Shown here: positions 5,020-62,068 of the stretch, in pieces
Layout: every line of letters starts with the position of its first letter
Numbering within the stretch: the stretch's first letter is position 1
IMG/VR virus record: IMGVR_UViG_3300029288_001872
Span: 125,633-189,632 of that record
Length of the DNA: 64,000 bases
Strand: one strand, 5' to 3'
From: a virus
Lineage: Duplodnaviria; Caudoviricetes
Notes under the pieces: model-generated
The model's input: the letters and a program-made list of their open reading frames with translations, nothing else
The model's database searches: none
Told to the model about the DNA's origin: nothing
Translations under genes and position numbers: made by a program

Positions 5020-5096
5020 CGGCCCTTGGCGCAGTCTGGTAGCGCACTTGCCTTGGGCGCAAGGGGTCCTTGGTTCAAATCCAAGAGGGCCGACCA
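5020..5096 (+). tRNA. tRNA-Pro(TGG)
   Basis: Cloverleaf: CGGCCCT/AGGGCCG acceptor, CTTGC-CTTGGGC-GCAAG anticodon arm, TTCAAAT T-loop, encoded CCA. Confidence 0.95.
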
Positions 5097-10211: not shown

Positions 10212-11192
10212 ATGAATAAAGTTAATGTTATCAAGGTATTAGACAGTATTTCGCCTATTTTATCTGAGGATTATGACATTATCCACTTCAATCAAGATTC
10301 CATTTATGCCGAAAGCAACATGATAGGAATTTCTTGCAATTTGGATTTTGGCTTCAAGGCTTCAATTAGAGGTATTGAATTAATAAAATTACTTAAAAAG
10401 ATGTCTGGCGATGAAGTAGAGTTTAAACTCACAGACAAAACTTTGTCAGTCAAAGGTGGCGGTTTATCAGCCAAGTTTAAGAAATATGATAAAGAAAAAA
10501 CACCACCAGATTTCACTGAATTAGAATTTAAAGAAGTACCAGACAATTTTATTGAAGCAATAACTGCTTGTTTACCTTCTGTATCAGATAAAGATATTCA
10601 AGGAATTTTAACTGGTTTGCATATTGACAATGCTTTAATGTATGGATGCAATAATGTTTCTGTGACTGAATATGAAATACCAGATATGGATGTAACATTT
10701 ACACTTCCGAAACAAACTGCTTCTTTGCTGACTAAATTTAATCCAAAATACTATTATATTACTGATAACAAGGCCATATTTGCCAATGAAGATAAAACTT
10801 CATATTTGTGGTCTGTGCTTATGGCTGGTGCTTATCCAGTTGAGAATATGGTTAAATTGTTGTCTAAAGAAGGTGATATTTTCTCTTTACCAGAAGAAAT
10901 AGGTAAAAGAGCAGATATTGTAAGTCTGTTTGCCTATGATGCTCAAGACGGCAGTTCTTTTATTGAAGTAGATATACAACCAGATAAGATTGTATTAGGC
11001 GGTAACAAGTCTTTTGGGAATTTGGAAGATGTGATGGAATATAAGTCGGAAGGAAGTGTGAAGTTTCATGTGAATAGTTTGTCTTTGAATCGAGCTTTGT
11101 TGATAGATAACAAATTTACATATTGTGGAAATTTCATTGTTTTTGAAAACAGCCAAGTCCGGCATCTGGTTTGTCTAGTTGACCACGCTTGA
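10212..11192 (+). CDS. dnaN: DNA polymerase III beta-like sliding clamp
   Basis: 326 aa; 'VSDKDIQGILTGLHI', 'LMAGAYP' match beta-clamp signatures; DnaE and DnaX nearby. Confidence 0.7.
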   Translation: MNKVNVIKVLDSISPILSEDYDIIHFNQDSIYAESNMIGISCNLDFGFKASIRGIELIKLLKKMSGDEVEFKLTDKTLSVKGGGLSAKFKKYDKEKTPPDFTELEFKEVPDNFIEAITACLPSVSDKDIQGILTGLHIDNALMYGCNNVSVTEYEIPDMDVTFTLPKQTASLLTKFNPKYYYITDNKAIFANEDKTSYLWSVLMAGAYPVENMVKLLSKEGDIFSLPEEIGKRADIVSLFAYDAQDGSSFIEVDIQPDKIVLGGNKSFGNLEDVMEYKSEGSVKFHVNSLSLNRALLIDNKFTYCGNFIVFENSQVRHLVCLVDHA

Positions 11193-11212
11193 TAACAGAG
11201 TAAATTAGATAA

Positions 11213-11328
11213 GGTATGGTCGGGTCAGGTTTGGTATGGTTGGGTCTGGTGTGGTGAGGTCAGGTAGGGTTAGGTAAGGTGTGGTAAGGTGAGGGTGTAA
11301 GTCTAGAAAATTAGGCTTACACAGTTTT
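11213..11328 (+). ncRNA. guide array A: 16 x GGT-NN plus terminal hairpin
   Basis: Perfect 5-nt periodicity 11213-11292; stem 11295-11305/11312-11322 followed by AGTTTT. Confidence 0.8.
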
Positions 11329-11354
11329 AAAGAAATTAAAAAGGAGAATTCAAA

Positions 11355-11609
11355 ATGCTAATGACACCACAAAATAAAGATTGGGATGACTTTTGCGCCA
11401 TTCTGGAAGGTCCAGAGGGATGCGATTTTAAGAAAGACGAAAAAGGAAAAATCACCTGGAAATGCGACAGTAGTATGAATAGGCCGCTTGCCATTAAAAT
11501 TCTTGCAGAATATTTTCCAGAAATAGATATTGAAGGTTCGTTAGAATATTTCAATGAGCACGGTGGTCTTTGTGATTGTGAAATTCTATTTAATGTAGGT
11601 GAGGAATGA
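11355..11609 (+). CDS. DUF2695-like protein
   Basis: HGGLCDCEILFN motif. Confidence 0.65.
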   Translation: MLMTPQNKDWDDFCAILEGPEGCDFKKDEKGKITWKCDSSMNRPLAIKILAEYFPEIDIEGSLEYFNEHGGLCDCEILFNVGEE

Positions 11610-11992
11610 CAGAAAAGAATTTAGAAGGTTGGACTTGGATTATTGGTACTCCAAAATGGCATTATATGAGAAAAGGTTTTTCTCTATGTGGAAAATGGAT
11701 GTTACTTGGTAATCCAACTTTGGAACAAGGCAAACCTTTTTCTCTAGATAATTGTAAGGCGTGTAAAAAGAAATTGTTTAGTGAATATCCCAAAAAGGAG
11801 AAGAAAACCAATGGGTCCAAAAAGTTGTTATGAATGCAATAATAAAGATTTGTGTGCTATTCTTTTTTGTTTTCAGAAAGCAATGGAAGAGAGTCCTACG
11901 CTTCCCGTAGTGGACAGTGATGATTTTGAACACAGACTATACGAACTGCTTGGCCAAGATTGTTTGTATTATAATTAAAGGAGATAAATAAG

Positions 11993-12274
11993 ATGCCTAC
12001 AATTAAAATTCCAGCAGAATTGGCAAGAGCTATTGTTTATGATGATACAGATGAGGGTGAATTAATTGAAGAAGAGATTTTTGATAGTGGCAGATGGTCT
12101 ATCACCTATAAGGCTATAATTAAATATCAAGATAAATTTTACAAAACATTTTATAGAGTAGGTGCTACTGAAGCACAAGAAGAAAAGCCTTGGGAATATG
12201 ATGATGAAGCAGAATTAGTAGAAGTTAAGCAAGTAGAAAAAATGGTTAAAGTTTGGGAAAAAGTTGTTGATTAA
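11993..12274 (+). CDS. conserved hypothetical phage protein
   Basis: RBS; 'GRWS...GATEAQEEKPWEY'. Confidence 0.6.
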   Translation: MPTIKIPAELARAIVYDDTDEGELIEEEIFDSGRWSITYKAIIKYQDKFYKTFYRVGATEAQEEKPWEYDDEAELVEVKQVEKMVKVWEKVVD

Positions 12275-12400
12275 TGAAAACTAAGAATCAGGATTTAGAT
12301 ATCGGGGAAGATTTTGTTTCTGTTCCCAAAGAAGATTTAGATGTTTTCTTTCCACATATAGAAGGTCAATATCATGCTGTTTGTCTTAATAATGGAATAA

Positions 12401-13012
12401 TTGGGCCATTATGTAAAAATAATAAAGATTCTATTTGTATTATGGGTTCTTTTGAAAGACCAAGGAATTTTTATCATGCTTGGGACGGGAAAAATTGTTG
12501 GAAATGTCCTTGTGGATAACATACCAGAAATTATAAAACCATTCACAATTTTAGTGAAGAAGTTGATCGTTACCAATAAAACTTCTGAATGGTGTAAACT
12601 TCCTTATCCAAATCATCCAAAAGGTTGTCCTAATTATAACAAAAAGTTATTTTGTCCTCCCAATCATATTGACATTAATAAATATTTTGATTTATCAAAA
12701 CCATTATATTTCGTATTTGCAGAATTTGATTTAGAGAAACATTCAAAAAGAATGAAAGTTTTACATCCAAATTGGACAGAAAGACAATGTAAATGTTGTC
12801 TATATTGGCAATCAAAAGTTAGAAAACAATTAACTGAAAATATTAAGTTAGTATCAATGGTTTTAGGAACTGATAGAACAACCAGTTGTCCAGAAGCAAT
12901 GGGAGTAAATGTATTCGCTACTTGTGCTTTATCTGGTCTTAAATTGGAAAGAACAAGAGATTTGAAAATAGATAGACATATAGCTTTAATAGGATATAAA
13001 ATAGGAGAATAG
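12401..13012 (+). CDS. DUF2284-like metal-binding protein (start probably GTG 12512)
   Basis: 'CPNYNKKLFCPP', 'PEAMGVNV'. Confidence 0.55.
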   Translation: MGHYVKIIKILFVLWVLLKDQGIFIMLGTGKIVGNVLVDNIPEIIKPFTILVKKLIVTNKTSEWCKLPYPNHPKGCPNYNKKLFCPPNHIDINKYFDLSKPLYFVFAEFDLEKHSKRMKVLHPNWTERQCKCCLYWQSKVRKQLTENIKLVSMVLGTDRTTSCPEAMGVNVFATCALSGLKLERTRDLKIDRHIALIGYKIGE

Positions 13013-13471
13013 ATGGCAGATTTTGACAATAATAGATTTGCTTCAAAAAATCAAGAATGGGAAACACCAATAGAACTTTTCAACTTCTTGAATGAAGAAT
13101 TTAATTTCACTTTTGATGTATGCGCTGATGAAAATAATAAGAAAACAAATAATTATTTTTCAGAAGAAGATGACGCTTTAAGTAAAGAATGGAATGGCAT
13201 CTGTTGGATGAATCCTCCATACAAAGATTTGAAACTGTGGGTCAAGAAAGCCTATCTCGAAAGCAGACACAAAGATTGCACTGTTGTCTGTCTTGTTCCT
13301 GCTAGAACTAATACTAACTGGTTCCATGAATATTGTATGAAAGGTGAAATAAGATTTATTAAAGGCAGACCTAAATTCAAAGGATGCGAACATGGTCTGC
13401 CACAACCACTTGCAATAATTGTATTTGGATTAGATTATTCAAATAATTATAAATCTGTAAAGTTGAAATAG
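13013..13471 (+). CDS. phage DNA N6-adenine methyltransferase (Dam-like)
   Basis: WETP, DVCA, WMNPPY, LVPART. Confidence 0.9.
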   Translation: MADFDNNRFASKNQEWETPIELFNFLNEEFNFTFDVCADENNKKTNNYFSEEDDALSKEWNGICWMNPPYKDLKLWVKKAYLESRHKDCTVVCLVPARTNTNWFHEYCMKGEIRFIKGRPKFKGCEHGLPQPLAIIVFGLDYSNNYKSVKLK

Positions 13472-13513
13472 ATAATGACTCCACAAAAGGTGGTTATATT
13501 TTGAGAGAGATTA

Positions 13514-14383
13514 ATGAAAATATGTTGGGAGAATTTAGAGAAAGTAAGGCTAAGGGGTGGAAATTTTTATTCTGGGAATATTCCTTTATTTTATATTGAA
13601 GAATGTACAGTTTGTAAAGAGTCTTTTTTAACTAAAAAGTTTGGGTTGTTTTGTTCTAGAGAGTGTGAACATGAGAAAGAAAGACCGCTTTGTAAATGTG
13701 GATGTGGTAAATACACCACTTGGCATAAAATAAAATTAAAATGGAATGAATTTCTTCATGGGCATCAATTTAAAGGGAAGAAACATAAAGAGGAGAGTAT
13801 AAAAAAACAATCGGAATCTAAAAAAGGAAAGAAACATTCAGAAGAACACAATAAAAAGATAGGACTAAGTGGGATTGGGAGAGTACAATCAGAAGAAACT
13901 AGAAAAAAGAGAAGTGAATCATTAAAAAAACACAATTATGCTCCAGAGCGAATAGAAAAATTAAAATTAATAGGGCGTGAAACTTCATTAAAAAGAAGAG
14001 GATATCACCATACAGAAGAATCTAAAAAGAAGATGAGTGAATCACAGAAGGGAAAGATAGGGATGGCTGGAGAAGATAATCCGAATTGGAGAGGAGGAGT
14101 TTCTTTTTTACCATATCCAATTATTTGGGATAATAAACTCAGAAATGAAATAAAAACAAGGGATGATTTTAAGTGTCAAAATCCAGAATGTTATTGCAAT
14201 GCAAAAAGACTTAATGTTCATCATATTGATTATGATAAACAAAATTGTTCCGAATTTAATTTAATAACATTGTGTGTTGGATGTAACAGTAGAGCCAATT
14301 ATAATAGAGAATATTGGCAAGGACTTTACCAATGGATGATTTCGGAGAAATATTTTGAGTTTTTTTCATGCACATGTTCATGA
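13514..14383 (+). CDS. HNH homing endonuclease with NUMOD3 repeats
   Basis: HSEE/HTEE repeats; 'VHHIDYDKQNCSEFNLITLCVGCN'. Confidence 0.85.
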   Translation: MKICWENLEKVRLRGGNFYSGNIPLFYIEECTVCKESFLTKKFGLFCSRECEHEKERPLCKCGCGKYTTWHKIKLKWNEFLHGHQFKGKKHKEESIKKQSESKKGKKHSEEHNKKIGLSGIGRVQSEETRKKRSESLKKHNYAPERIEKLKLIGRETSLKRRGYHHTEESKKKMSESQKGKIGMAGEDNPNWRGGVSFLPYPIIWDNKLRNEIKTRDDFKCQNPECYCNAKRLNVHHIDYDKQNCSEFNLITLCVGCNSRANYNREYWQGLYQWMISEKYFEFFSCTCS

Positions 14384-15800
14384 TGAATTTAGTACTCTCG
14401 ATGGAGAAGGAAAACCGGAGACCTATGTTCAAGAAGCAAGTCGTCTTGGTTTTAAATATCTGGCAGAAACAAATCACGGAAATTGTGATGGCTTCTTAAA
14501 GTTTCAAGAAGCATGTCTCAAAAACAATATTACACCGATTTATGGCGTGGAACTCTACATAGTCCCAGACATTACCAAAAGAGATAAATATGAAAAGAAA
14601 TATCATATCACTGTTTTGATTCAAAACAAGATTGGGTTTACCAATGTCCTAAAAATGCTTACCATAGCTAACCTTGAAGGCCATTATTATAGACCACGAA
14701 TTGATCCATCGGTATTACTTAAACATTATGAAGGTCTGGTCTTTATGACTGCTTGTGTATCTTCTTTCATCAATATGGAAGGAGGAACAGAATTATTATT
14801 AGAATTACACAAGAAAGTTCCAACCTATCTTGAATTGATGCCACATAATTATCCTATCCAGAAAGAAATCAATTTAAAGAAATTAGAATTAGGAAAGAAA
14901 TATAACATTCCATTTAGTGCATCGAACGACTGCCACTACGCAAAACCAGAACACGCCAAGGCACAGGAAATGCTTCTTGCTATTCAGAAAAAAGCTAAAT
15001 GGGATGACCCAAAAAGATGGAAATTTGATTTTGGTGGTCTGTATTTAAAATCTGAACAAGAAATGGAACAAGCGTTCATAGAGCAGAATTGTGTTCCTAA
15101 AGAAATTTGGCGGCCAGCTATGGATAATACTATGGAAATAGCCAAACTTTGCGAAAATTTTAAAATCAGAAAAAGAAAAGTTTCTTTGCCAAAAGTCTAT
15201 GGCTATGAACATAGAGATGAAACCGAATTGATGAGGGAAATAATTGAAAATGGGATGAAAGAAAGAAAAATAGGCAATTATGAAACATATAGAAATAGAG
15301 TAGAAGAAGAATTTGAAATAATTTGTAAACTTAATTTCCAAAGATATTTCCTTATAGTGTGGGAATTGATAGAATATTGTAAGAGAAATAATATTGGTGT
15401 CGGCCCTTGTCGTGGGTCATCAGGTGGGAGTCTAATCTGTTATTTGATGCATATCACAGATATAGACCCAATAAAATATGGCCTTATTTTTGCAAGATTT
15501 ATTTCTATGGAGAGGTGTTTCGTAGAAAATACAAAAATGATAATAAATAATAAGATTGAAGAGATAAAAAATGCAAAAATTGGTGATTTTATTATAAACA
15601 AATATGGAGAATTAGATAAAATAAAAAAAATTCATAAATATCAAGTAAATAAAAAACTTTTAAAAATTTATTTTAATGGAGATTATGTAATTTGTACTAA
15701 AAATCATAAATGGATAGTAGTTGATAAAAATGGAAATACAGTTGAAAAAAAAGCAGATCAAATAATTATGAAGGAGGATAAATTAATAAGAATTAAATAA
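14355..15800 (+). CDS. dnaE: DNA polymerase III alpha, N-terminal half plus N-intein
   Basis: PHP motif HAHVHDEFSTLDG, GPCRGSSGGS; ends in intein N-part starting CFVENT at 15516. Confidence 0.9.
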   Translation: MSFFHAHVHDEFSTLDGEGKPETYVQEASRLGFKYLAETNHGNCDGFLKFQEACLKNNITPIYGVELYIVPDITKRDKYEKKYHITVLIQNKIGFTNVLKMLTIANLEGHYYRPRIDPSVLLKHYEGLVFMTACVSSFINMEGGTELLLELHKKVPTYLELMPHNYPIQKEINLKKLELGKKYNIPFSASNDCHYAKPEHAKAQEMLLAIQKKAKWDDPKRWKFDFGGLYLKSEQEMEQAFIEQNCVPKEIWRPAMDNTMEIAKLCENFKIRKRKVSLPKVYGYEHRDETELMREIIENGMKERKIGNYETYRNRVEEEFEIICKLNFQRYFLIVWELIEYCKRNNIGVGPCRGSSGGSLICYLMHITDIDPIKYGLIFARFISMERCFVENTKMIINNKIEEIKNAKIGDFIINKYGELDKIKKIHKYQVNKKLLKIYFNGDYVICTKNHKWIVVDKNGNTVEKKADQIIMKEDKLIRIK

Positions 15801-15823
15801 TATCAATTAGAGGTAATTAGAAA

Positions 15824-16654
15824 TTGGGAAAGAATAAGAGAAATCCTGGAATATATATTATTAGAAATATAAAAACAAATAAAGCCTATATTGGAAGTTC
15901 TGTCAATCCTACTAATAGATTAAAAGAACATTTTAGTTCTCTATTAAAAGGAAAACATCATAGCGTTTATTTACAACGTAGTTATAATAACCACAAAAAG
16001 GAGTGTTTTGAATTTGGAGTAATTGAAAATATAGATGATGAAAAAGATTTAATAAGTAGAGAGCAATATTGGATCGATTTCTTTGATAGTTATAATAATG
16101 GATATAATGTTTGCCCTAATGCTGGAAATTCTTTAGGAAGAAAGGCTACAGAAGAAGAAAAGAAAAAAGCAAAAGAACGTATGTCTGGTGAGAAAAATCC
16201 CATGTATGGAAAAACACATACAGATGAGGTGAAAAAGAGATTATCTGAAATTCATACAGGATTAGAAGTGACTCAAGAATTTAGAGAGAAAATGTCTGAA
16301 ATTACAAGTGGTGAAAACAATGGGATGTATGGTAAGAACCATACAGAAGAAACTAAAAAGAAACAAAGGGAAATTAAAATTGGTTTATATGAAGGGGAAA
16401 ATAATCCAAATTATGGGAATAAATGGAGTAAAGAAGCAAGAAAAAAGATGAGTGAAAATGTAATAGCTTCTGGGAGAGTAAGTGGTGAAAACAATGGGAT
16501 GTATGGTAATTTTAAAATAAAGAAAGAAGAATGGAATGAAATCATATATGATATTAAAGAAAAGAAAATAAAGGTTTCGATTATCGCTAATAAATATAAT
16601 GTACACGTACAAACAATTTATAGTATTTTAAAGGCAAAATTTGATAATGAATAA
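15824..16654 (+). CDS. GIY-YIG homing endonuclease with NUMOD3 repeats, between the dnaE halves
   Basis: PGIYIIRN..AYIGSS; GENNPMYGK repeats. Confidence 0.9.
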   Translation: MGKNKRNPGIYIIRNIKTNKAYIGSSVNPTNRLKEHFSSLLKGKHHSVYLQRSYNNHKKECFEFGVIENIDDEKDLISREQYWIDFFDSYNNGYNVCPNAGNSLGRKATEEEKKKAKERMSGEKNPMYGKTHTDEVKKRLSEIHTGLEVTQEFREKMSEITSGENNGMYGKNHTEETKKKQREIKIGLYEGENNPNYGNKWSKEARKKMSENVIASGRVSGENNGMYGNFKIKKEEWNEIIYDIKEKKIKVSIIANKYNVHVQTIYSILKAKFDNE

Positions 16655-19100
16655 AAACATAAACATTAAAGAATTAGTAACTATAGATAAAATAGAAGAG
16701 ATTGATTATAATGGTTATGTTTATGGATTGACAATTGAAAATGATCCATCTTATTGTTTAGAAAACAACATTATAACAAAAAATTCCGATCTACCAGATA
16801 TTGATGTTGACTATGAAGATATAAAAAGAGAAGATGTAAAAAAGCATTTAAGAGATTGTTATGGAGAATACAATGTGGCAGGAATATCAACATTTTTAAC
16901 ATTAAAAGGGAGAGGAGCATTACGAGATGTAGCAAGAGTTTTTGATTTACCATTAAGAGAAGTTGATTTAGTTTCAAAAGAAATAGAAACAAAATTAGAC
17001 GGAGACAAACTTTGCGGGCATACAATTGAAGAAGCATGTAAAAAATCTGAAATTGTTGCTTCATTTAAAAAGAAATATCCAGAAACAGTTCAACTTGCAA
17101 TAGATTTGGAAGGACAGACAAAAGCAGTTGGTCAACATGCGGCTGGTATAGTTATTTCTGCTGATGATTTGAGAAAAGGAGAAAGATGCAATCTCTGTGT
17201 TAGAAGCGGAGAAATTGTAGTTAATTGGGATAAAGAAGACGCAGAACAAATGGGTTTAATGAAACTTGATGTTCTTGGTTTAACTTCTTTGACTATTATT
17301 AATTCTACTAAGAAATTTATTAAAGAAAATTACGATGTTGATATAGAATTAGATAAACTTACATTAGATGACAAAGAAATATATGAAGAAATTTCTAAAG
17401 GGAATAATGTAGGTTTGTTTCAATTGAACTCACATGGTTTAACTGGGTTGTGCAAAGAAATGGGAGTAAAAGAATTTAATGACACAGTTCTTGCTACTGC
17501 CATCTTCCGACCAGGAGTATTGGGAAGTGGAATGGCAGATGAGTATATTAAAAGGAGGAAAAATAAAAAGGAAATAAAATATATTCATCCAAAATTAAAA
17601 AAATATACAAAAGACACACTTGGAATTGTTTTATATCAAGAACAAGTAATGTGGGTTATGTATGAACTTGCTGGCTTACCTTGGTCTGTTTGTGATAAAG
17701 TAAGAAAAGTAATGGGTAAATCTCAAGGGGATGCAAAGTTTCAAAAATTTAAACAACAATTCATTGATGGATGTAAAAAGAATAAAACATTATCAGAAAA
17801 AGAAGCAGATAAAGTTTGGGATACATTAGCTTCATTCTCAAAATATGGATTTAACTTAAGCCACGCTACTGCATATTCTATGATAACTTATTATTGTGCT
17901 TATCTAAAATATTACTATCCTAAAGAATTTCTATGTGCTTGTTTGACCTATGGTGGTGAAGATAAGAAAGCAGAATATGTCAATGAAGCAAGAAGATTAG
18001 GTTTAGAAGTAAGTTTACCAAAAATAAACAAATCGCTTGCTGATGTTTGGTATCCCAACAAAGATAGCAATATTATTTATGCGCCATTGACTGAAATAAA
18101 AGGTGTAGGTAAAACACAAGCAGAAAAAATAATTGAGCAGAATACTAACAAGAAAGTTGGTTTTTTCACTATCATGGACCAGTCTGTTGTGCCTGCAAAT
18201 TCTACTGATGAATTATTGAATAAAGTAGGATTTTACAAAAAAACTTCTTTGACGCAAAAAGAATTGATGAAAGCCAGACAATACCTAAATTTTAATCCAT
18301 TGACTGGTATGAACAGATTTAGTAGATTGCCAAAAGATTTGGATTATTCAGATGATGATATTATTAAATGTAATTTGGAAGGATTTAAAGGCAATCTAAT
18401 TGAAATAAAGAAATATGTAAAGAAGATAGAATGTGATAAATGTGAATTAAGAAAAGAAGCAAAGAAGCCTGTTTCATCATCATTTGGTAGATATAATATA
18501 ATGGTTTTGGGCGAAAGTCCATGGATTGATGAGGATCGAGAAGGACTTGGGTTTGTTGGTAAAACTGGCAAGGAAATATTATGGCCAGAGTTTAAAAAAC
18601 ATGGATTACATAGAGATATGTTTCACATCTCGAATGTGATTAAATGTAAAATTAAGAATCCTTCAAAAAAACAAATACCTCCTTGTTCACATCACATCAT
18701 AGAAGAAATAGAAAATTTAAAACCAATTTTAATCTTGGCTTTTGGAAATACCAATGTAAGATTTTTCAAAGAACAAGATGGTGGAATAATGAAATTGAAT
18801 GGTGAAACTGAATGGTCAGATAAATTTCAATGCTGGATTTGTTGGTCAATTCACCCTTCTGCTGTCATCTATCATGATGCTGAAAACAGACCACTATTTG
18901 AAAAAGGAATTAAGAATTTTGCAGATAAAATAAATATGATTGGTGGCAATTGGTTGAGAAAGAATAAAGAACAAATACTTATTAAAAAATGTTCTTATGG
19001 CGGTAAATTTGGAATAGATAATAATGAGTATGAGGAATGCTCCCAATGCAAAATCTGGTTTGATTGTACTAAAATTGCGATGAATGAGGATTTTAAATAA
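16647..19100 (+). CDS. dnaE: C-intein plus DNA polymerase III alpha C-terminal half, fused to family-4 uracil-DNA glycosylase-like domain
   Basis: 'VYGLTIEND..ITKN|SDLPDIDVD', GQHAAG, KLDVLGL, YGFNLSHA; C-terminal 'CDKCEL..LGESPWIDED..GFVGKTG..IHPS'. Confidence 0.9.
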   Translation: MNKNINIKELVTIDKIEEIDYNGYVYGLTIENDPSYCLENNIITKNSDLPDIDVDYEDIKREDVKKHLRDCYGEYNVAGISTFLTLKGRGALRDVARVFDLPLREVDLVSKEIETKLDGDKLCGHTIEEACKKSEIVASFKKKYPETVQLAIDLEGQTKAVGQHAAGIVISADDLRKGERCNLCVRSGEIVVNWDKEDAEQMGLMKLDVLGLTSLTIINSTKKFIKENYDVDIELDKLTLDDKEIYEEISKGNNVGLFQLNSHGLTGLCKEMGVKEFNDTVLATAIFRPGVLGSGMADEYIKRRKNKKEIKYIHPKLKKYTKDTLGIVLYQEQVMWVMYELAGLPWSVCDKVRKVMGKSQGDAKFQKFKQQFIDGCKKNKTLSEKEADKVWDTLASFSKYGFNLSHATAYSMITYYCAYLKYYYPKEFLCACLTYGGEDKKAEYVNEARRLGLEVSLPKINKSLADVWYPNKDSNIIYAPLTEIKGVGKTQAEKIIEQNTNKKVGFFTIMDQSVVPANSTDELLNKVGFYKKTSLTQKELMKARQYLNFNPLTGMNRFSRLPKDLDYSDDDIIKCNLEGFKGNLIEIKKYVKKIECDKCELRKEAKKPVSSSFGRYNIMVLGESPWIDEDREGLGFVGKTGKEILWPEFKKHGLHRDMFHISNVIKCKIKNPSKKQIPPCSHHIIEEIENLKPILILAFGNTNVRFFKEQDGGIMKLNGETEWSDKFQCWICWSIHPSAVIYHDAENRPLFEKGIKNFADKINMIGGNWLRKNKEQILIKKCSYGGKFGIDNNEYEECSQCKIWFDCTKIAMNEDFK

Positions 19101-19457
19101 ATGACTAAATTTATCCTTTCTTTAGAAACTACTGTTGATTATGATAAAGCTATTGAAGTTGGTGGAACAACTAATAAAGAAGAAGCGATTGAAGGTTTGA
19201 AAAAGGTGTTGGAAGAATTAAAAGAATTTATATTGGAAGGACAAGAATTAGAAGATTGGATTGAAGTAAAAACTTCATTTAGAGAGGAAGAATAAATAAT
19301 GGTTGACATATCAATTGAAATAAAATGTACTTGTGGAAATGTTTTGGAAGCAGAAGTTAAAAATGACAGGTTTGGCGTTCAATATGTTCTTATAGAGCCT
19401 TGCGAAAGATGCCTTGAAGAAGAATATTATAGAGGCAAGGATGAAGGAAGATAATTT

Positions 19458-20327
19458 ATGAAGTGTTTTTATCATTCTTCTGATCTTGACGGCTTTTGTT
19501 CGGCAGCCATTGTCAAATATAAATATCCAGATTGTGAATTGTTTCCAATTAATTATGGAGATGAATTTCCATGGGAGAAAATTGCAGATAAAAACGAAGT
19601 AGTTTTTATGGTTGATTTTGGATTACAACCATTCAGTGATATGGTTCTTTTAAACAAAAGATGTTGGTTGATTTGGATTGACCATCATGGAACTGCTATT
19701 CAATCTGCTATTGAAAGTAAAGAAGAAATTAATGGTTGTAGAATTGAAGGACAAGCAGGTTGTGAACTGACTTGGGATTGGATTTTTGGGACTAAAAGAC
19801 CAAAAGCGGTAAGTTTATTGGGGAGGTATGATATATGGCAATATAAAGATAATAATGAAGTTTTACCTTTTCAATATGGTATAAGAATAGAAGAAACAGA
19901 CCCAAGAAATCCAAAAGTAATGAAAAATCTTTGGATACCTTTGTTTAATGGCAATAACTGCAATTCAATAATTCAGGAAGGTCATACCATATTAAAATAT
20001 GAGAATCAAGTTAATGAAAAATTTTGTAAATCATACGCTTTTGAAACAGAATTAAGAATTCCAGAAGGTGTTCTTGGTAAAACATATAATCTAAAGGCAA
20101 TTTGTCTCAATAAAGGTTTCAATAGTTCAAAAGTATTTGAATCTGTTTGGGACAACAATAAATATGATATCATGGTAGGTTTCTGTAGAAGAAATAAAAA
20201 ATGGGATGTAAGTTTGTATTCTGACAAATTAGAAATACATTGTGGTGAAATTGCTAAGATTTTCAAGGGTGGTGGTCATGCAGGAGCGGCTGGATGTCAA
20301 GTTGATGAATTACCTTTTGATTATTAA
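19458..20327 (+). CDS. DHH family phosphoesterase
   Basis: DLDG, IDHH, GGGHAGAAG. Confidence 0.85.
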   Translation: MKCFYHSSDLDGFCSAAIVKYKYPDCELFPINYGDEFPWEKIADKNEVVFMVDFGLQPFSDMVLLNKRCWLIWIDHHGTAIQSAIESKEEINGCRIEGQAGCELTWDWIFGTKRPKAVSLLGRYDIWQYKDNNEVLPFQYGIRIEETDPRNPKVMKNLWIPLFNGNNCNSIIQEGHTILKYENQVNEKFCKSYAFETELRIPEGVLGKTYNLKAICLNKGFNSSKVFESVWDNNKYDIMVGFCRRNKKWDVSLYSDKLEIHCGEIAKIFKGGGHAGAAGCQVDELPFDY

Positions 20328-20547
20328 GGAGTAAAAACTTATGGCTTGTGTTTGTTGGAGTTGCCATGGCAAAGGAAAATTTATTTATCCTATATATGAA
20401 AGATGTTCTGAAAACAATGAAGGCGCAATAAATCTTATGGGAAAATTCATTCATATTGTAGGTGAAAAAGAAGTTGATTGTCCGAATTGTGATGGTACAG
20501 GAATTATTTCTCGCAAACAAATTCCAAATTACTTCTTTGGAGACTAA

Positions 20548-21003
20548 ATGAACATCTACTTTGCAGCACCACTATTCACCATGGCAGAGAAAGAATTCAA
20601 CAAGAGGCTTGCAACTACCATCGAAGAAAAAGACAAAAATATTAATATATTTCTTCCACAAGAAAATTCTGTCTTTGATGAATATGGTGAATTTCTTTCA
20701 AAAGAAACGTTTGATTCTGATTTGAAAGCCATAGACAATTGCGACTTGGTATTGGCGATTTTAGACGGTTCTGACGCTGATTCGGGTACTTGCTATGAAT
20801 GTGGATATGCTTACAACAAAAAGAAAATCCTTGGCATAAGAACTGATTTCAGGTCTGGTGAAGAAGATGGTCTAAATGTGATGTTGAGACACGGGGTTGA
20901 TGACTTGATATTCTATCCTTGTAATGAGAACCCGCCTGATGTTGATTGTTTGGCTTGGATGATAATCGAGAAGATACGAGCAATGTTTGGAGAAGATTTT
21001 TGA
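20548..21003 (+). CDS. nucleoside 2-deoxyribosyltransferase family protein
   Basis: IYFAAPLF, DSGTCYECGYA. Confidence 0.85.
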   Translation: MNIYFAAPLFTMAEKEFNKRLATTIEEKDKNINIFLPQENSVFDEYGEFLSKETFDSDLKAIDNCDLVLAILDGSDADSGTCYECGYAYNKKKILGIRTDFRSGEEDGLNVMLRHGVDDLIFYPCNENPPDVDCLAWMIIEKIRAMFGEDF

Positions 21004-21149
21004 GGTTTAAAAAATGACTTATGATACTGGATTTCAAACTCAATGTCCAGAGTGTGGTTTTTGGACCGATTGTTATCAAATAAGATGTTTTGGAAGATGC
21101 AAAGACTGTCAAGACAAGAAAGACAAAGAAATCATAAAGGAGAAATAAA

Positions 21150-21593
21150 ATGGCTACTACTTACACGGATGCTCCAATTGAAGAAATGGCGAATAAACTA
21201 ATTGAAAAGTATGAAGAACTTGAAGATTGTTTTGATGCAAAAATAAAATATCTTTTCAAAGGAAGCGCGAAGTCTTCCTACATCGGAAAATGCAGTAAAG
21301 CGACAGGTAAGTGGCGGTTCTTGACCGGCGACCTCGACTACGTAGTAGAAGTATGGGAACCTTATTGGACCGTGGCTTCTGACAAACAAAAAGAAGCATT
21401 GCTGTATCATGAACTAAGGCATGTTGAAAAGAAAATAAAAGAAAATGATGATGGTGAAGAAACGGTAACATGGAAAGTCAGGAAGCATCATGAAGAAATT
21501 TTTGTAGATGAGATTGAACATTTTGGTTCATGGAATGACGGCCTCAGCAATCTTATGGGTGCTTTCTTGGCACAAAACATTGGGAAAAGATAA
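21150..21593 (+). CDS. putative phage metallopeptidase
   Basis: ALLYHELRH (HExxH). Confidence 0.7.
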   Translation: MATTYTDAPIEEMANKLIEKYEELEDCFDAKIKYLFKGSAKSSYIGKCSKATGKWRFLTGDLDYVVEVWEPYWTVASDKQKEALLYHELRHVEKKIKENDDGEETVTWKVRKHHEEIFVDEIEHFGSWNDGLSNLMGAFLAQNIGKR

Positions 21594-21960
21594 TGAAAAT
21601 TAAATGGGAAGTTGAGGATGGTTATGTTGGCAAATCAAGACCGCATCATCTTGAGATAGATGATGATGAATTAGAAGGATTGTCAAAAGAAGAAGTTGAA
21701 AGTTATATCAACGATTCTGTTCAAGAAGAATTTGAGCAAAATGTTTATCCTGTGTGGGAAATCGTGAAAGAATAGATGTACATCTACTGGCGCATACAGC
21801 AAGACTTGACTTGCCTTGGCGAAATAATTCAGTTTAAAGACCCAGTTTTCATTAATGCAATTCGCAAATGGGTAAAGAAAAATTTCACCGGAATAATGTT
21901 AGCAGAAGAAATTTCTTCTGGACGTTGTTTCTTCAAAATTGAAAATAAGAAGGTTTATCA

Positions 21961-22584
21961 TTGACCTATAAGATTTTTCCAGAAACAACAGTCCAAGAAT
22001 CTGCCAAGATTATTCAGTCTATAAATTTTGACCAAAACCAGATTTTGGCAGATATAGTTAATCTTCATACTGGATTAATTGAATTAGATGTATGTTATGG
22101 AAGTGGTTGCTTCTACCGTAAGATACCAAAACCAAAATATTGTTTTGATTTAAACCCTAGAAAGCCAGGAATAATTGCAGCAGATGTGAGACATTTACCA
22201 TTGAAAGATAATTCTATATCATCTGCAATTTTTGATCCTCCATTTTTAGCAAGAACTGGTCCTGGTGCAACATTAAAGGCCAGATTTGGAGAATTAGTTG
22301 GGACTATTCAAGTCTTGTGGGAGATTTATTATGATGGTATGGAAGAATTATATAGAGTTTTGAAAACCAAAGGATGGATGGTTGTAAAATGTCAGGATGG
22401 TGTCCTTTCAGGAAAGAATAATAATACTTATGGAAAAATTTGTAACAAGGCAGAAGAATTAGGATTTGTTTGGAAAGATTTATTTATATTGTTAGCCAAA
22501 CATAGAATGCAACATCCGCGCCCACATATTCAACGTCACTCGCGTAAATTTCATTCGTACTTTATTGTATTTTATAAGAAATGA
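21961..22584 (+). CDS. DNA amino-methyltransferase
   Basis: DVCYGSG, FDPPF, KCQD. Confidence 0.75.
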   Translation: MTYKIFPETTVQESAKIIQSINFDQNQILADIVNLHTGLIELDVCYGSGCFYRKIPKPKYCFDLNPRKPGIIAADVRHLPLKDNSISSAIFDPPFLARTGPGATLKARFGELVGTIQVLWEIYYDGMEELYRVLKTKGWMVVKCQDGVLSGKNNNTYGKICNKAEELGFVWKDLFILLAKHRMQHPRPHIQRHSRKFHSYFIVFYKK

Positions 22585-22593
22585 GAGAATATT

Positions 22594-23187
22594 ATGAAAA
22601 CTATTATAATTAATAATAAAGAATACAAACTCATTCCTTATGGATATTGTTATTGTGGTTGTGGGAAGAAAACTAATATTAGTAAAGAAAATGGCAATGG
22701 ATATAAAAAAGGAGAACCAAAACGGTATTTTTATAGGCACCAAGAAAAATTAAAAAATCACCATTTGTGGAAAGGAGGAAGAGTTGTTGATAAAAGTGGT
22801 TACATTTTAATTTATAATCCAGAACATCCAAGAGCAAGTTATGGATATGTTAGAGAACATATTCTTGTAATGGAAGAGGCTATAGGTAGACAACTTAAAA
22901 AAGAAGAAATAGTTCATCATATTGATGAAGATAAAGGGAATAATTACATAGGAAATCTAATCTTATTTGCTAATGGAACAATGCATAAAAAATTTCATAA
23001 TAGATTGCTAGCTTTTAAAATTTGTGGTCATTATGATTGGAGAAAATGTAAATTTTGTAAGAATTATGATGATATAAGCAATATGCATGAGAATTATAAT
23101 AAAAGAACTAATTGTTATAATTATTACCATAAAAAATGTCAGAATTTATACCAACTAAATAAAAGAAGGGATAAGCAATGCCATTAA
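22594..23187 (+). CDS. HNH homing endonuclease
   Basis: 'YVREHILVME..VHHIDEDKGNN..NL'. Confidence 0.8.
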   Translation: MKTIIINNKEYKLIPYGYCYCGCGKKTNISKENGNGYKKGEPKRYFYRHQEKLKNHHLWKGGRVVDKSGYILIYNPEHPRASYGYVREHILVMEEAIGRQLKKEEIVHHIDEDKGNNYIGNLILFANGTMHKKFHNRLLAFKICGHYDWRKCKFCKNYDDISNMHENYNKRTNCYNYYHKKCQNLYQLNKRRDKQCH

Positions 23188-24664: not shown

Positions 24665-24672
24665 ACCACTAT

Positions 24673-24748
24673 GCGGGGATAGCTCAATTGGTAGAGCGCA
24701 GACCTTCCCGGTCTGAGGTTGAAGGATCATACCCTTCTCCCCGCTCCA
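24673..24748 (+). tRNA. tRNA-Gly(TCC), atypical loops
   Basis: GCGGGGA/TCCCCGC acceptor, T73, CCA; anticodon loop CTTCCCG; T-loop ATCATAC. Confidence 0.8.
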
Positions 24749-24803
24749 ATTCCAAGAGTCCAAAAAATTTTACCTCTAGAGTACAAAAAATTGAACTTTT
24801 CTA

Positions 24804-24832: not shown

Positions 24833-24836
24833 ATAG

Positions 24837-29359: not shown

Positions 29360-30019
29360 ATGGCAGCAAAGAAAGACGTAACTGGAATTGTTCCAAGAAA
29401 AGATGTGGCAATCCCGCCTCCACAATTTCAAACTGTTGAGTTTACAATTGTTGGTGATGCTCCTTATGTCCAACAAAGATTTTCTCAGAAGGCAATTGAG
29501 CAAATCAAGGCGGTCCAACTGGCAGGTTCCAAGAGCAAGAAAGGAAAGGCTCGCGAACCAAAAGATTTTCAAGAATGTTATGAACAAGCTAAACACATTT
29601 CGACAGAAGGCTGGTGTGGTATTCCTGCATCTTCCTTTCGTGCTGCAATGATTTCTGCTTGTCGTTTGGTTGGGTTTAAGATGACTTTGGCTAAACTTTC
29701 AATTTTCATTCCTGCTGATGGTTTTGATGTGGTTGATGGAACACCATTGATTAAGTTTTCTAAAGGCGAACCGCGCTATGTTGAACACGCTATGAGAATT
29801 CCTGGTATTGGTGGCGGAGGTACAGATATTCGCCCTCGTCCGATGTGGGACCCAGGTTGGGAAGCAAAAGTGCGTGTCACTTTTGATGAGGCGCAATTTT
29901 CCGCGGAAGATGTAACCAATTTGATGATGAGGGTTGGTATGCAAGTTGGTTTGGGTGAAGGTCGCCCCGATTCCAGAAGTAGTGTTGGTATGGGATGGGG
30001 GACTTTCCAACTGAAATAA
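29360..30019 (+). CDS. stand-alone Cas7/RAMP-like protein (candidate guide-binding effector)
   Basis: N-terminal strand 'VEFTIVGDAPY', IPASSFRAAM (RAMP IPgSslKGa-like), C-terminal G-rich loop GLGEGRP..GMGWGTF; directly followed by the arrays. Confidence 0.75.
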   Translation: MAAKKDVTGIVPRKDVAIPPPQFQTVEFTIVGDAPYVQQRFSQKAIEQIKAVQLAGSKSKKGKAREPKDFQECYEQAKHISTEGWCGIPASSFRAAMISACRLVGFKMTLAKLSIFIPADGFDVVDGTPLIKFSKGEPRYVEHAMRIPGIGGGGTDIRPRPMWDPGWEAKVRVTFDEAQFSAEDVTNLMMRVGMQVGLGEGRPDSRSSVGMGWGTFQLK

Positions 30020-30071: not shown

Positions 30072-30740
30072 GGCAGGCGTGACGACACAAGTTCAGATAG
30101 GGAGAGATGCGTTGGGGTGAGTCTTGGACTGTTAAGGCAGGTAAGACATGGCAAGTAAGACATGGCAAGTTGCAACCAGATATGTTATGGCGGTTTAAGT
30201 TATGGTTCGGCAGGCTATGCTAGTCGGGCTGAGGCTGGTTGAGACCCGTTAGGTTATGGCAGGTGTGACATGACAAGTGATATACGATTAGTTGAGTTAG
30301 GTTTTGGTTGATCGTGTTATGGTTTGGCAGGCCAAGAGTGATGAGATATGTCTTGGTAGGTTAAATTATGGCGGGGAGTATCATGACACGGCAGGTATGA
30401 CGAGACGCCACGAGAGAAGACAAGGAGTGTTGCTGTGCGACTTAACAAGGCAGGCAATTCCTCCTCTTGGCTAGTCGGGGCTTGGCAGGCGTGTTGAGAC
30501 TTTACAAGTTGAGTGTAATGAGTTAAGTTCTGTCACGATAGGGTTAGGCAAAGCAGGTACGACGACACAAGTTATGGTAAGTTCTGGGTGTTACAATGTG
30601 TTGGGTTCAGGCAAGGGTGGCAGGCTATGCTAGTCAGGTTGAGATTAGTTGAGATGATTTCTGGCGAGTTAAGACATAGCAGGTAGGATGAGTTACGTCC
30701 TGATAAGGTTTGTTCTGTCCTGATTTGTCAAGGCAGGCAA
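30072..30740 (+). repeat. guide array U: about 11 units delimited by GGCAGG/AGCAGG, each about 9-13 [triplet+NN] pentamers
   Basis: Delimiters at 30072, 30136, 30209, 30258, 30326, 30390, 30449, 30484, 30552, 30619, 30678, 30732; spacing often 4+5n. Confidence 0.8.
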
Positions 30741-30769
30741 GATAAATAATTAACCACAAGGAGAACTAA

Positions 30770-31258
30770 ATGATGGTAAAGAAACATTTGGATGAGTTGA
30801 ACCAAATTATGGAAGAAAATGGTGGATTACTTCGAGCGGAAGATGTTGTTGAATTCGCCAAAAATCCTAAGACAACTTTGCATAATGCGTTTGAGTGGGA
30901 TGATAAGAAGGCTTCTTATAAATGGAGGTTATTTCAAGCCAATCAACTCATCAGAGTTGCAGTTACTATTCTCCCAAGAGAAAACCAAGAACCCATTATG
31001 GTTCGGCCTTTCGTCAGTTTGAAAGAAGACAGATATAATGGTGGAGGTTATCGTTCCACACTGGAAGTAATGGAAAGTCCAATTCTCAGAAAAACGCTAT
31101 TGGATGAAGCTAAAGAGGATATGCAAACTTTCATGGATAAATACAAATCTTTGGAAGAACTTGCGGAAGTCTTTGTTGCAATGGAACCTTTAATTGTTCC
31201 ACCACCCACTAAAGGACAAAGAAAGTATAAAAGGGTTGAACAACAATTATCAGCTTGA
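30770..31258 (+). CDS. conserved phage protein embedded between the two arrays (candidate accessory subunit)
   Basis: RBS AGGAG; 'GGLLRAEDVVEFAKNPKTTLHNAFEWDDKKA..RL.QA.QLIR'. Confidence 0.7.
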   Translation: MMVKKHLDELNQIMEENGGLLRAEDVVEFAKNPKTTLHNAFEWDDKKASYKWRLFQANQLIRVAVTILPRENQEPIMVRPFVSLKEDRYNGGGYRSTLEVMESPILRKTLLDEAKEDMQTFMDKYKSLEELAEVFVAMEPLIVPPPTKGQRKYKRVEQQLSA

Positions 31259-31268: not shown

Positions 31269-31632
31269 GGCAGGTATGGCACGTTTCGATTTGGTAGGAC
31301 ATGGTGTGTTTGGTCGCATTCTGGTACTTCAAGGCAGGTGTAACAAAGACGAGTCGAGATGAGTTCGGTTGTGGTGAGTTTTAATATGGAAAGATACGTT
31401 GAGGTTCGATACGGCAGGTAAGACAAGATAAGACAAGGAGTGGTGCTACTTGCCCCGATTTGTTAGGTTGAGGAGTTATACGGCAGGTCAGACGTGTCCG
31501 GTTGAGACAAGACATGGTGGGATATGACACGGTTTGTCGGGTTGAGATAAGCAAGGCATGGCAGGCGCGGCAGGTTGAGGCATGGCGCAATGTGACGTGG
31601 TGCGCTGGGGCAAGACAAGAAGAGACATAGCA
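31269..31632 (+). repeat. guide array V: 5 GGCAGG-delimited units; V2-V4 decode to recA
   Basis: Delimiters at 31269, 31333, 31413, 31482, 31560, end AGCA 31629. Confidence 0.85.
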
Positions 31633-59394: not shown

Positions 59395-59542
59395 GGTAAG
59401 GTGCGGTTGGGTGAGGTATGGTATGGTCAGGTATGGTCTGGTAAGGTTAGGTGGGGTCGTGTAGGGTGAGGTTTGGTAAGGTATGGTAAGGGTTTGGTTG
59501 TCATTTTCCAATTAAATCTTATTGGAAAATGACAACAATTTT
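59395..59542 (+). ncRNA. guide array B: 19 x GGT-NN plus 16-bp hairpin
   Basis: Pentamers 59395-59489; stem 59497-59512/59521-59536 then AATTTT. Confidence 0.8.
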
Positions 59543-59573
59543 GAATATAAAAACTGAATTTAGGAATGCTTAA

Positions 59574-60737: not shown

Positions 60738-60881
60738 GGTACGGTGAGGTGGGGTAAGGTAGGGTATGGTTTGGTACTGTCCAGTATGGTTTGGTGGGGT
60801 AAGGTTTGGTAAGGTTGGGTGTGGTAAGGTGAGGGTTGCTTCTTTTGTTTTAACAATTTGATAGAAAGAAGCAACAGTTTT
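60738..60881 (+). ncRNA. guide array C: 19 x (G)GT-NN plus hairpin
   Basis: Pentamers 60738-60832; stem GTTGCTTCTTT/AAAGAAGCAAC then AGTTTT. Confidence 0.8.
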
Positions 60882-61951: not shown

Positions 61952-62068
61952 GGTCCGGTTCGGTACGGTATGGTTAGGTATGGTCAGGTCCGGTTTGGTA
62001 AGGTTTGGTCGGGTAGGGTAAGGTGAGGGTACTAATCCTACTACACTCGGTAGGATTAGTACAATTTT
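61952..62068 (+). ncRNA. guide array D: 15 x GGT-NN plus hairpin
   Basis: Pentamers 61952-62026; stem 62029-62042/62049-62062 then AATTTT. Confidence 0.8.

What the first reader, a model, noticed from the sequence alone, without database searches (positions are those of the whole stretch)
11157..11328. Orphan (GGT-NN)16 array spells the 3' end of the upstream sliding-clamp gene, including its stop codon
NN = at cg ca tt at tg ct gt ga ca ag ta aligns to codons 11157-11192 (gtc cgg cat ctg gtt tgt cta gtt gac cac gct tga). In the first 10 units 7 are identical and 17/20 nt match. It decodes as I-R-H-L-I-C-L-V-D-H-S/R-stop vs own VRHLVCLVDHA-stop, with differences V>I, synonymous Leu and TA(x) for TGA. 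The array sits 20 bp downstream of the homologous site, about 18 kb from the RAMP gene, and ends in its own hairpin.
Basis: partly seen in the sequence, partly recalled or inferred. Interest (0 to 1): 0.9.

Follow-up and report, generated by a model that had tools for sequence, protein, structure and literature searches.

The report
Phage VIPR guide RNA beside clamp gene
The five-base repeat after the sliding-clamp gene is a guide-RNA gene of a phage VIPR system (a CRISPR-related DNA-silencing system first described in 2026). Its two-letter code spells the end of the clamp gene as sister phages carry it, and matches the phage's own copy less well.

Summary
Window 11213-11292 holds 16 perfect GGT-NN units, followed by GGG and an 11-bp hairpin.

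- **Self match:** the NN of units 1-12 equal codon positions 1-2 of the last 12 codons of the upstream clamp ORF in 18 of 24 letters. This is the best site in the whole 189.6-kb genome.
- **Not an orphan:** the genome has nine such arrays, all on the + strand.
- **Known kind:** the array fits a vrRNA of a VIPR system (bioRxiv 10.64898/2026.04.26.720920, .720927 and 10.64898/2026.10.15.759431). These are GGY-NN repeats bound by a Cas7-like Vipr protein, and the NN read target DNA while skipping each codon's wobble base.
- **Protein partner:** a Vipr candidate lies 18 kb away (window 29360-30019; RAMP fold).
- **Target:** clamp alleles of three metagenomic relatives match the guide better (21-22 of 24) than the phage's own allele does.
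- **Reciprocal guide:** the sister phage G001 has no vipr match, yet its clamp-linked vrRNA matches this phage's clamp gene 18 of 18 and its own copy only 14 of 18.

The array is therefore most likely a weapon against sibling phages, placed next to a poorer-matching copy of its own target. It is a new member of a known kind. This scan has already logged VIPR arrays in at least 15 other genomes, one with the same guide-beside-target layout. No expression data exist.

The parts
10212..11192 (+). Sliding-clamp (DNA pol III beta-like) ORF, 326 aa; the gene whose 3' end the guide mirrors
   Evidence: ORF list. tblastn hits features annotated as DNA pol III beta subunit in phages at 23% identity. 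No Pfam hit. Relatives at 93-96% aa identity.
11106..11131 (+). Site in this phage's clamp gene (codons D-N-K-F-T-Y-C-G-N) matched 18/18 by the clamp-linked vrRNA of sister phage G001
   Evidence: It is the unique perfect hit in the genome (next best 15/18), and none of 200 shuffled guides reached 18. G001's own allele scores 14/18.
11157..11192 (+). Last 11 codons plus stop of the clamp ORF: the self copy of the A1 guide's target, with 6 of 24 read positions mismatched
   Evidence: 18/24 in frame, with every skipped base a wobble base.
11213..11272 (+). vrRNA guide part: GGT-NN units 1-12
   Evidence: NN match non-self clamp alleles at 21-22/24. NN differ from the G001 array while GGT and the flanks are conserved.
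11273..11292 (+). Four semi-constant GGT-NN units (AA GT AA GA) that match no allele
   Evidence: The same or similar last units end arrays B1, A3, A4 and the G001 clamp array. They are unmatched in self and in relatives.
11293..11328 (+). 3' tail: GGG, an 11-bp hairpin, then AGUUUU; probably the vrRNA tail and transcript end
   Evidence: Fold -14.7 kcal/mol, z = -4.7. Eight of the nine arrays in the genome end in such a hairpin, each with a different sequence.
29360..30019 (+). Vipr candidate, 219 aa, RAMP/Cas7-like
   Evidence: AF2 model pLDDT 84.5. Foldseek hits Csm3/Cmr4/Cas7 chains at probability 1.0. hhalign to the putative Vipr of Felixounavirus HY02 gives P = 1.8e-4 over the thumb and G-loop part. 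A 61%-identical homologue (L139) is flanked by GGC-NN arrays.
30770..31258 (+). Candidate vipr-accessory (vap) gene, 162 aa
   Evidence: Assigned by position only. No Pfam hit; phrog_15946, function unknown.
30072..30770 (+). vipr-adjacent guide array 1: GNY-NN pentamers in units separated by GGCA
   Evidence: Parsed. The architecture resembles the 'staggered' arrays named in the VIPR paper.
31269..31620 (+). vipr-adjacent guide array 2, just upstream of the phage's own recA/uvsX gene
   Evidence: The unit at 31333 matches G001 recA 25/30 in frame (8 units perfect), against about 18/26 for self. The unit at 31482 matches G001 recA 23/26.
59395..59552 (+). Dispersed vrRNA A2 plus hairpin, after an epimerase gene
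   Evidence: 28/40 to the last 20 codons of ORF 58453-59391, in frame. Nearly identical in G001.
60738..60876 (+). Dispersed vrRNA A3 plus hairpin
   Evidence: target not found.
61952..62066 (+). Dispersed vrRNA A4 plus hairpin
   Evidence: target not found.
63104..63335 (+). Dispersed vrRNAs A5 and A6 in tandem, with one hairpin after A6
   Evidence: targets not found.

Best explanation
The array is a vrRNA gene of a VIPR system.

**The RNA.** It is transcribed on the + strand, behind the clamp gene or from a weak promoter-like site at 11179-11206. The product would be about 115 nt: 12 guide units, 4 semi-constant units, GGG and a terminator-like hairpin.

**Mechanism, taken from the published work.** One Vipr protomer binds each pentamer and hides the GGU. 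The two free bases of each unit pair with one DNA strand while every third target base is flipped out. The complex then blocks transcription.

**Target, shown here by sequence.** The guide is written for the last 11 codons plus stop of the clamp gene as sibling phages carry it. The phage's own allele, 20 nt upstream, differs at 6 of the 24 read positions. Three of those six lie in guide units 11-12, the ones nearest the tail.

**Function, inferred.** During co-infection the guide loads onto Vipr and silences the rival's clamp operon, including any vrRNA transcribed behind it. The phage's own poorer-matching copy would be bound less well. Tight linkage keeps guide and mismatched allele together through recombination. 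The sister phage G001 does the same in reverse without a vipr of its own, presumably borrowing its rival's protein.
For: **vrRNA anatomy.**
- 16 perfect GGT-NN units plus a hairpin tail. The published definition is 9-16 GGY-NN repeats plus a structured tail.
- GGT and the flanks are conserved against G001, while the NN differ.
- In other metagenomes the stretch from about 11075-11147 to about 11342-11354 is replaced by other sequence (joints).

**Code.**
- Local hits appear only with the one-base-skip reading. Periods 2, 4, 5 and 6 give none.
- All local hits are in frame, with the skipped base at the wobble position.

**Targets.**
- A1 guide: self 18/24, L132 17/24, G001 21/24, L136 21/24, L138 22/24.
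- G001's clamp-linked guide: 18/18 on G000, L132 and L138, against 14/18 on itself. No shuffled guide reaches 18.

**Protein.**
- One Vipr-like RAMP gene in the genome.
- A homologue's locus carries GGC-NN arrays.
- The vipr-adjacent guides hit G001 recA at 25/30 and 23/26, better than self.
- G001 is a complete genome with no match to the Vipr profile, and the vipr-vap block is absent at the syntenic site.

**Independent sample.** The identical array occurs on a contig from a groundwater run of another study (record 11).
Against: - No RNA data exist for this phage, so the transcript, its ends and its loading onto Vipr are all inferred.
- The arrays next to vipr have a different build: GNY rather than GGT, GGCA separators and no hairpin. 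That this Vipr uses the dispersed GGT-NN RNAs therefore rests on indirect evidence, namely G001's guide aimed at the Vipr-bearing phage.
- No allele matches perfectly; the best is 22/24.
- The mismatch tolerance of this VIPR type is unknown, so 75% self identity might still allow binding.
- The 3' end of a gene is an odd place for silencing.
- Array B3 matches its own primase gene in 9 consecutive units, so self-avoidance is not a rule in this genome.
- 284 arrays from other viral contigs show no such upstream match.
Confidence: 0.75

Rival explanations
1. Self-regulation. The guide is meant for the phage's own clamp gene. Partial binding at the gene's 3' end tunes clamp or downstream expression, or feeds back on the vrRNA's own synthesis.
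For: The best site in the phage's own genome is the adjacent gene. Array B3 matches its own primase gene in 9 consecutive perfect units. A2 matches its own upstream gene 28/40, and both guide and gene are the same in G001.
Against: Three non-self alleles match better than self. G001's guide is perfect on rivals and 14/18 on itself. The published surveys found no self hits at 80% or more, and found lower self than non-self scores. For A1, the mismatches to self include guide units 11-12 near the tail; in SUSP1, R-loop formation starts at the tail end.
Confidence: 0.1
2. Fossil or captured cassette. The array was written against, or arrived by recombination from, an older allele and is now inert. 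The match only records ancestry.
For: No perfect target was found. Every guide dinucleotide occurs in some natural allele, as expected from an ancestral mosaic. Cassettes come and go between relatives.
Against: All 16 GGT triplets and the hairpin are intact. The identical array is present in a second study's sample. Matches of 21-22/24 exceed the 80% line the authors use for natural targets.
Confidence: 0.08
3. Guide for someone else's protein. The dispersed GGT-NN RNAs are not used by the 219-aa Vipr of this phage. They are used by a Vipr of a third element (prophage, satellite or other phage) met in the host.
For: The vipr-adjacent arrays have a different repeat and no hairpin tail. Solo vrRNAs that redirect a foreign VIPR are published. 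G001 carries such arrays with no vipr at all.
Against: G001's guide is aimed at the phage that does carry this Vipr. A homologue of this Vipr sits among strict GGC-NN arrays. No second Vipr was found in the genome.
Confidence: 0.05
4. No guide at all. The array is a G-rich 3' UTR element that stabilises the mRNA end (two-layer G-quadruplexes, or a TRAP-like protein platform), and the NN match is chance.
For: Every array sits between a stop codon and a hairpin. GG-N3 spacing could form weak quadruplexes (own knowledge).
Against: Fixed-site p <= 1e-5. The relation is replicated in three arrays. A sister phage's array is a perfect 18/18 reciprocal hit. Neither chance nor a structural role predicts codon-phased matches.
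Confidence: 0.02

Closest known systems
VIPR systems (Vipr + vap + vrRNA), e.g. type II of Escherichia phage SUSP1; bioRxiv 10.64898/2026.04.26.720920 and 10.64898/2026.04.26.720927
   Same: GGY-NN pentamers within the 9-16 unit range. NN read target DNA with one skipped base that falls on the codon wobble. Structured 3' tail. Small RAMP protein and small accessory gene. Phage-borne, with targets in rival elements.
   Different: The tail is a plain hairpin of non-conserved sequence that also looks like a terminator, not the SUSP1 pseudoknot. The last four units are semi-constant and unpaired with any allele. The array lies 18 kb from vipr, directly behind a replication gene. The Vipr is only remotely similar to the SUSP1-type protein (P = 1.8e-4, C-terminal part). 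Its own adjacent arrays use GNY with GGCA separators.
Solo (orphan) vrRNAs of VIPR-null phages and satellites; bioRxiv 10.64898/2026.10.15.759431
   Same: vrRNAs away from, or without, a vipr gene. Lower match to self than to relatives. Use of a rival's Vipr ('guns for hire') fits G001, which has guides but no vipr.
   Different: The published solo guides aim at vipr, other vrRNAs, satellites or host repeats, and their targets were reported as not covered by the carrier's own homology. Here the targets are alleles of core replication genes (clamp, recA), and the guide sits next to the carrier's own copy.
Class 1 CRISPR crRNA with Cas7 backbone (Csm3/Cmr4)
   Same: RAMP fold of the protein (Foldseek probability 1.0). 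One protomer per RNA repeat, with periodic base flipping.
   Different: No repeat-spacer array and no cas1/cas2. Period 5 with 2 read bases instead of period 6 with 5 read bases.
Free-standing homing endonucleases of T-even phages (marker exclusion); own knowledge, not tested
   Same: A weapon against a sibling phage's allele, encoded right beside the carrier's own variant allele, so that both are inherited together.
   Different: An RNA guide with a silencing protein, not a nuclease. No evidence of cleavage or of copying into the rival.

Membership tests
VIPR vrRNA | Tandem GGY-NN (YNNGG) pentamers, 9-16 units | tested here: met
   16 perfect GGT-NN units at 11213-11292.
VIPR vrRNA | GGY conserved and NN hypervariable between relatives | tested here: met
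   In the alignment with G001, GGT columns are invariant, most NN differ, and flanks are 84-93% identical. The cassette is replaced in other samples.
VIPR vrRNA | Structured 3' tail after the repeats | tested here: met
   Hairpin with z = -4.7, as in 8 of the 9 arrays. It is a simple hairpin, and no pseudoknot like SUSP1's was seen.
VIPR vrRNA | Targets follow the 1-nt skip rule, with the skip at the codon wobble | tested here: met
   Only period 3 gives local or homologous hits. All hits are in frame.
VIPR vrRNA | Natural target at 80% NN match or more, with self below 80% | tested here: met
   L138 92%, G001 and L136 87.5%, self 75% over the 12 guide units. Over all 16 units every allele is lower (self 21/32).
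VIPR vrRNA | Expressed as a roughly 100-nt RNA that co-purifies with Vipr | not testable with these tools
   No RNA run holds the stretch.
VIPR system | Vipr: a small RAMP protein (RRM core, thumb, G-loop) encoded in the same genome | tested here: met
   219 aa; AF2 pLDDT 84.5; Csm3/Cmr4/Cas7 hits. hhalign to the Felixounavirus protein aligns RP...G.G(D/E)xRP. Sequence similarity alone is weak.
VIPR system | vipr flanked by intergenic guide arrays and a small vap gene | tested here: met
   Arrays at 30072-30770 and 31269-31620 with a 162-aa ORF between them. Two of their guides hit G001 recA.
[quoted passage not shown] | Distance to the nearest vipr over 20 kb, or none | tested here: not met
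   A1 ends 18.07 kb before vipr (11292 to 29360). The other eight arrays in this genome, and all arrays found in G001, do meet the definition.
CRISPR array | Repeats of 20-40 nt separated by spacers; cas1/cas2 | tested here: not met
   The period is 5 nt. No such repeat array appears in the tandem-repeat scan. cas genes were not searched for.

The most novel reading that the evidence does not exclude
Guide and mismatched target allele form one tightly linked cassette, a weapon with its own immunity, that behaves as a selfish allele-exclusion module among sibling phages. Each lineage places a vrRNA directly behind the gene it attacks in its rivals. The two phages seen here target each other's clamp gene at sites 51 nt apart, and the vipr-less one fights with its opponent's protein. 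The linkage might also reflect how new guides are made, that is, written from neighbouring sequence. No acquisition mechanism for vrRNAs is described in the VIPR papers read here.
Probability: 0.3. Interest if true: 0.7.

Novelty: new member of a known kind. Interest (0 to 1): 0.45.

Why it matters
This is a natural case of two nearly complete sibling phage genomes caught aiming VIPR guides at each other's sliding-clamp gene. One carries the protein and the other carries guides only. It extends the published picture (targets in satellites, prophages and vipr itself) to allelic variants of core replication genes. It also shows guides scattered through a 190-kb genome as gene-end cassettes, each next to the carrier's own copy of its target. 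That layout offers a simple testable idea for how guide and self-protection stay together, and a set of natural target variants (75%, 87.5%, 92% and 100% match) for measuring the mismatch tolerance of a VIPR system.

Tried and rejected
**Ideas dropped once the VIPR papers were found.**
- A TRAP-like ring-protein platform.
- Two-layer G-quadruplexes.
- Runs of Shine-Dalgarno-like sites.
- Five-base 'codons' read by the ribosome. NN+G decoding gives M-R-Q-L-M-W..., not the clamp peptide.
- A DGR-like template/variable-region pair.
- Primase sites and Chi-like sites.

**Searches that gave nothing useful.**
- Rfam has no family for the arrays.
- A full-text search for 'GGTNN' found only unrelated papers.
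- blastn of the clamp region against 50,697 phage records found nothing.
- The sugar-gene region hit only the arrays of Felixounavirus phages. SUSP1, the published VIPR model phage, appears to belong to this group (genus from my own knowledge).
- A scan of 284 arrays on other viral contigs for the same upstream match gave only one low-complexity hit.
- Viral-contig and metagenome scans for further clamp alleles returned only G001. The protein search gave four more alleles.
- No allele matching the guide perfectly was found.
- No RNA holder was listed for the stretch.
- The simple terminator scan does not call the hairpin, because its U-run is short. The promoter-like site at 11179-11206 scores 9/12, which is chance level.
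- The SUSP1-type Vipr protein finds nothing in this genome by direct search.
- Targets of arrays B1, B2 and A3-A6 were not found in the DNA held.

Full report
**What is there.** Window 11213-11292 is an uninterrupted run of 16 GGT-NN pentamers. It begins 20 nt after the stop codon of ORF 10212-11192. That ORF is a 326-aa sliding-clamp-like protein: tblastn hits features annotated as DNA pol III beta subunit in phages at 23% identity. The run is followed by GGG and an 11-bp hairpin at 11295-11322 (-14.7 kcal/mol, z = -4.7), then AGUUUU. The window is the last 64 kb of a 189,632-bp, 34% GC virus record.

The array is not an orphan. The genome has nine such arrays, all on the + strand, each just after a stop codon. 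Eight of them are followed by a strong hairpin of different sequence.

**The match.**
- Read as codon positions 1-2, units 1-12 equal the last 12 codons of the clamp ORF in 18 of 24 letters. The first ten units give 17 of 20.
- This is the single best site for the guide in the whole genome, on either strand.
- The score alone is not significant: 23.5% of shuffled guides reach 18 somewhere.
- Other spacings (2, 4, 5 or 6 bases) give equally high scores at unrelated places.
- The position is what counts. At the fixed homologous site, shuffled guides give p <= 1e-5, and only 0.14% of genome windows of that size score as high.
- The relation is repeated. Array A2 (window 59395) matches the last 20 codons of its upstream epimerase gene 28/40 in frame. 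Array B3 (genome 115703) matches nine consecutive codons of its upstream primase gene exactly.
- The other six arrays show nothing of the kind. Nor do 284 arrays on other viral contigs.

**What it is.** I first considered RNA-binding-protein platforms, quadruplexes and recoding. A literature search then showed that this grammar was published in 2026 as the VIPR system.
- vrRNAs consist of 9-16 GGY-NN repeats and a structured tail.
- A small RAMP protein, Vipr, binds one repeat per protomer and hides the GGY.
- The NN pair with one DNA strand while every third target base is flipped out. In natural targets that base is the codon wobble.
- Binding represses transcription on either strand.
- A later preprint describes solo vrRNAs without a nearby vipr. 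It also describes guides whose match to self is lower than to rivals.

The blastn hits of my arrays in Felixounavirus phages are VIPR arrays of the kind described for SUSP1, which I take to be a Felixounavirus (own knowledge).

**The protein partner.**
- A note from this scan pointed me to window 29.2-31.6 kb.
- The 219-aa ORF at 29360-30019 has no Pfam family and about 7,000 unnamed homologues.
- It folds confidently (pLDDT 84.5) into a RAMP fold that hits Csm3, Cmr4 and Cas7 chains at probability 1.0.
- It aligns weakly with the 195-aa protein HY02_089 of Felixounavirus HY02, which I take to be its Vipr from its size and its place beside the arrays. The alignment covers the thumb and G-loop part (P = 1.8e-4). 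A profile search against solved structures gave a weak hit (E = 0.57) to the SUSP1 Vipr chain.
- A 61%-identical homologue on another contig is flanked by strict GGC-NN arrays.
- In this phage the gene is followed by pentamer arrays, a 162-aa ORF and more arrays.
- Those arrays use GNY rather than GGT and are cut into units by GGCA. This resembles the 'staggered' architecture the authors mention.
- Two of their guides match the recA gene of the sister phage G001 in frame, at 25/30 and 23/26, both better than the phage's own recA.
- So the locus appears to follow the published code.

**The target of this array.** I collected five further clamp alleles.

| Clamp allele | A1 guide, units 1-12 (of 24) | G001 clamp-linked guide, units 1-9 (of 18) |
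|---|---|---|
| G000 (this phage) | 18 | 18 |
| L132 | 17 | 18 |
| G001 | 21 | 14 |
| L136 | 21 | 16 |
| L138 | 22 | 18 |

- Each guide dinucleotide occurs in at least one natural allele.
- Where the self allele differs from the guide, the changes are V for I (twice), A for S, a synonymous Leu and a different stop codon.
- L132, L136 and L138 have no array behind the clamp. G001 has one with a different guide.
- The G001 guide's site in this phage is window 11106-11131. It is the only perfect hit in the genome, and none of 200 shuffled guides reached 18.
- G001 is a complete genome with terminal repeats and has no match to the Vipr profile. At the syntenic place the vipr-vap block is simply missing.
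- The two phages therefore aim at each other's clamp gene, and one of them has guides only.

**How it probably works.** Steps taken from the papers: Vipr filament on the RNA, gapped pairing, transcriptional block. Steps shown here by sequence: the guide grammar, the better match to rival alleles, the reciprocal guide, and the presence of one Vipr gene.

Steps inferred:
- The RNA is made and loaded.
- It blocks the rival's clamp operon, and with it the rival's own guide, which lies directly behind the target.
- Six mismatches protect self. Three of them lie in guide units 11-12 near the tail; in SUSP1, R-loop formation starts at the tail end.
- The last four units (AA GT AA GA) match no allele and recur at the end of other arrays. 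I read them as part of the constant handle.

**Weak points.**
- There are no RNA data.
- The dispersed arrays and the vipr-adjacent arrays differ in build, so their sharing one protein is not proven.
- No perfect target was found.
- Array B3 matches its own gene in nine perfect units, which looks like self-targeting or a recently captured cassette. G001 lacks that cassette altogether.
- In contigs from other studies the stretch from the clamp's last codons to the end of the tail is replaced by other sequence. The identical array occurs in a groundwater run.

**Verdict.** The mechanism is already published, so this is a new member of a known kind. The worthwhile twist is allelic targeting of core replication genes, with the guide placed next to the carrier's own poorer-matching copy. 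This scan has already recorded VIPR arrays in at least 15 other genomes, one with the same guide-beside-target layout.

Noticed in passing
genome 115593-115772 (9.8 kb before the window; locus L125:994-1173): Array B3 matches nine consecutive codons (E-I-I-N-L-N-G-V-K) of its own upstream primase gene exactly; only its first three units differ. The sister phage G001 has no array there: the primase stop is followed directly by the next gene. This may be self-targeting, feedback control or a freshly captured cassette.
   Followed up: partly
window 31333-31413 and 31482-31555: Two guides of the vipr-adjacent array, which lies just upstream of the phage's own recA/uvsX gene, match the recA of sister phage G001 in frame (25/30 and 23/26) and match the phage's own recA less well. 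This is the same guide-next-to-own-copy layout as at the clamp.
   Followed up: yes
G001 (IMGVR_UViG_3300014204_000113) 81482-81525: The sister phage lacks the whole vipr-vap-array block at the syntenic site and has no Vipr-profile match anywhere. It still carries at least eight GGT-NN arrays, one of them on the opposite strand.
   Followed up: yes
window 30072-30770 and 31269-31620: The vipr-adjacent arrays use G-N-Y triplets (GGT, GAC, GTC, GTT, GAT) instead of strict GGY, with GGCA separators and occasional one-base register shifts. In the alignment with the SUSP1 Vipr, the tryptophan that stacks on the second G is a glycine here. That might explain the relaxed second position.
   Followed up: partly
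window 59395-59552: Array A2 (about 20 units with one degenerate unit) mirrors the last 20 codons of the epimerase gene before it (28/40). It is nearly identical, gene end included, in G001, which has one extra unit.
   Followed up: partly
window 34176-34397: Rfam HEARO RNA (135 bits), the RNA partner of IscB-type HNH nucleases. This is a second RNA-guided element in the same phage.
   Followed up: no
window 5020-5093, 24673-24745, 37465-37545: Three tRNA genes (Rfam).
   Followed up: no
window 39819-39902: A 23-bp tandem repeat, 3.7 copies, 95% identical; not explained.
   Followed up: no
window 11179-11206: A promoter-like site (TTGACC, 16 nt, TAAATT) ends 7 nt before the array. Its first hexamer lies inside the guide's target region, and TTGACC is conserved in G001. 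If real, the guide would sit on the promoter of the rival's own vrRNA. The score is at chance level.
   Followed up: partly
window 11075-11354, from contigs of other runs: In contigs of two other studies the clamp's last codons, the array and its tail are replaced by 240-270 nt of other sequence between conserved flanks. This stretch behaves as a swappable cassette.
   Followed up: partly
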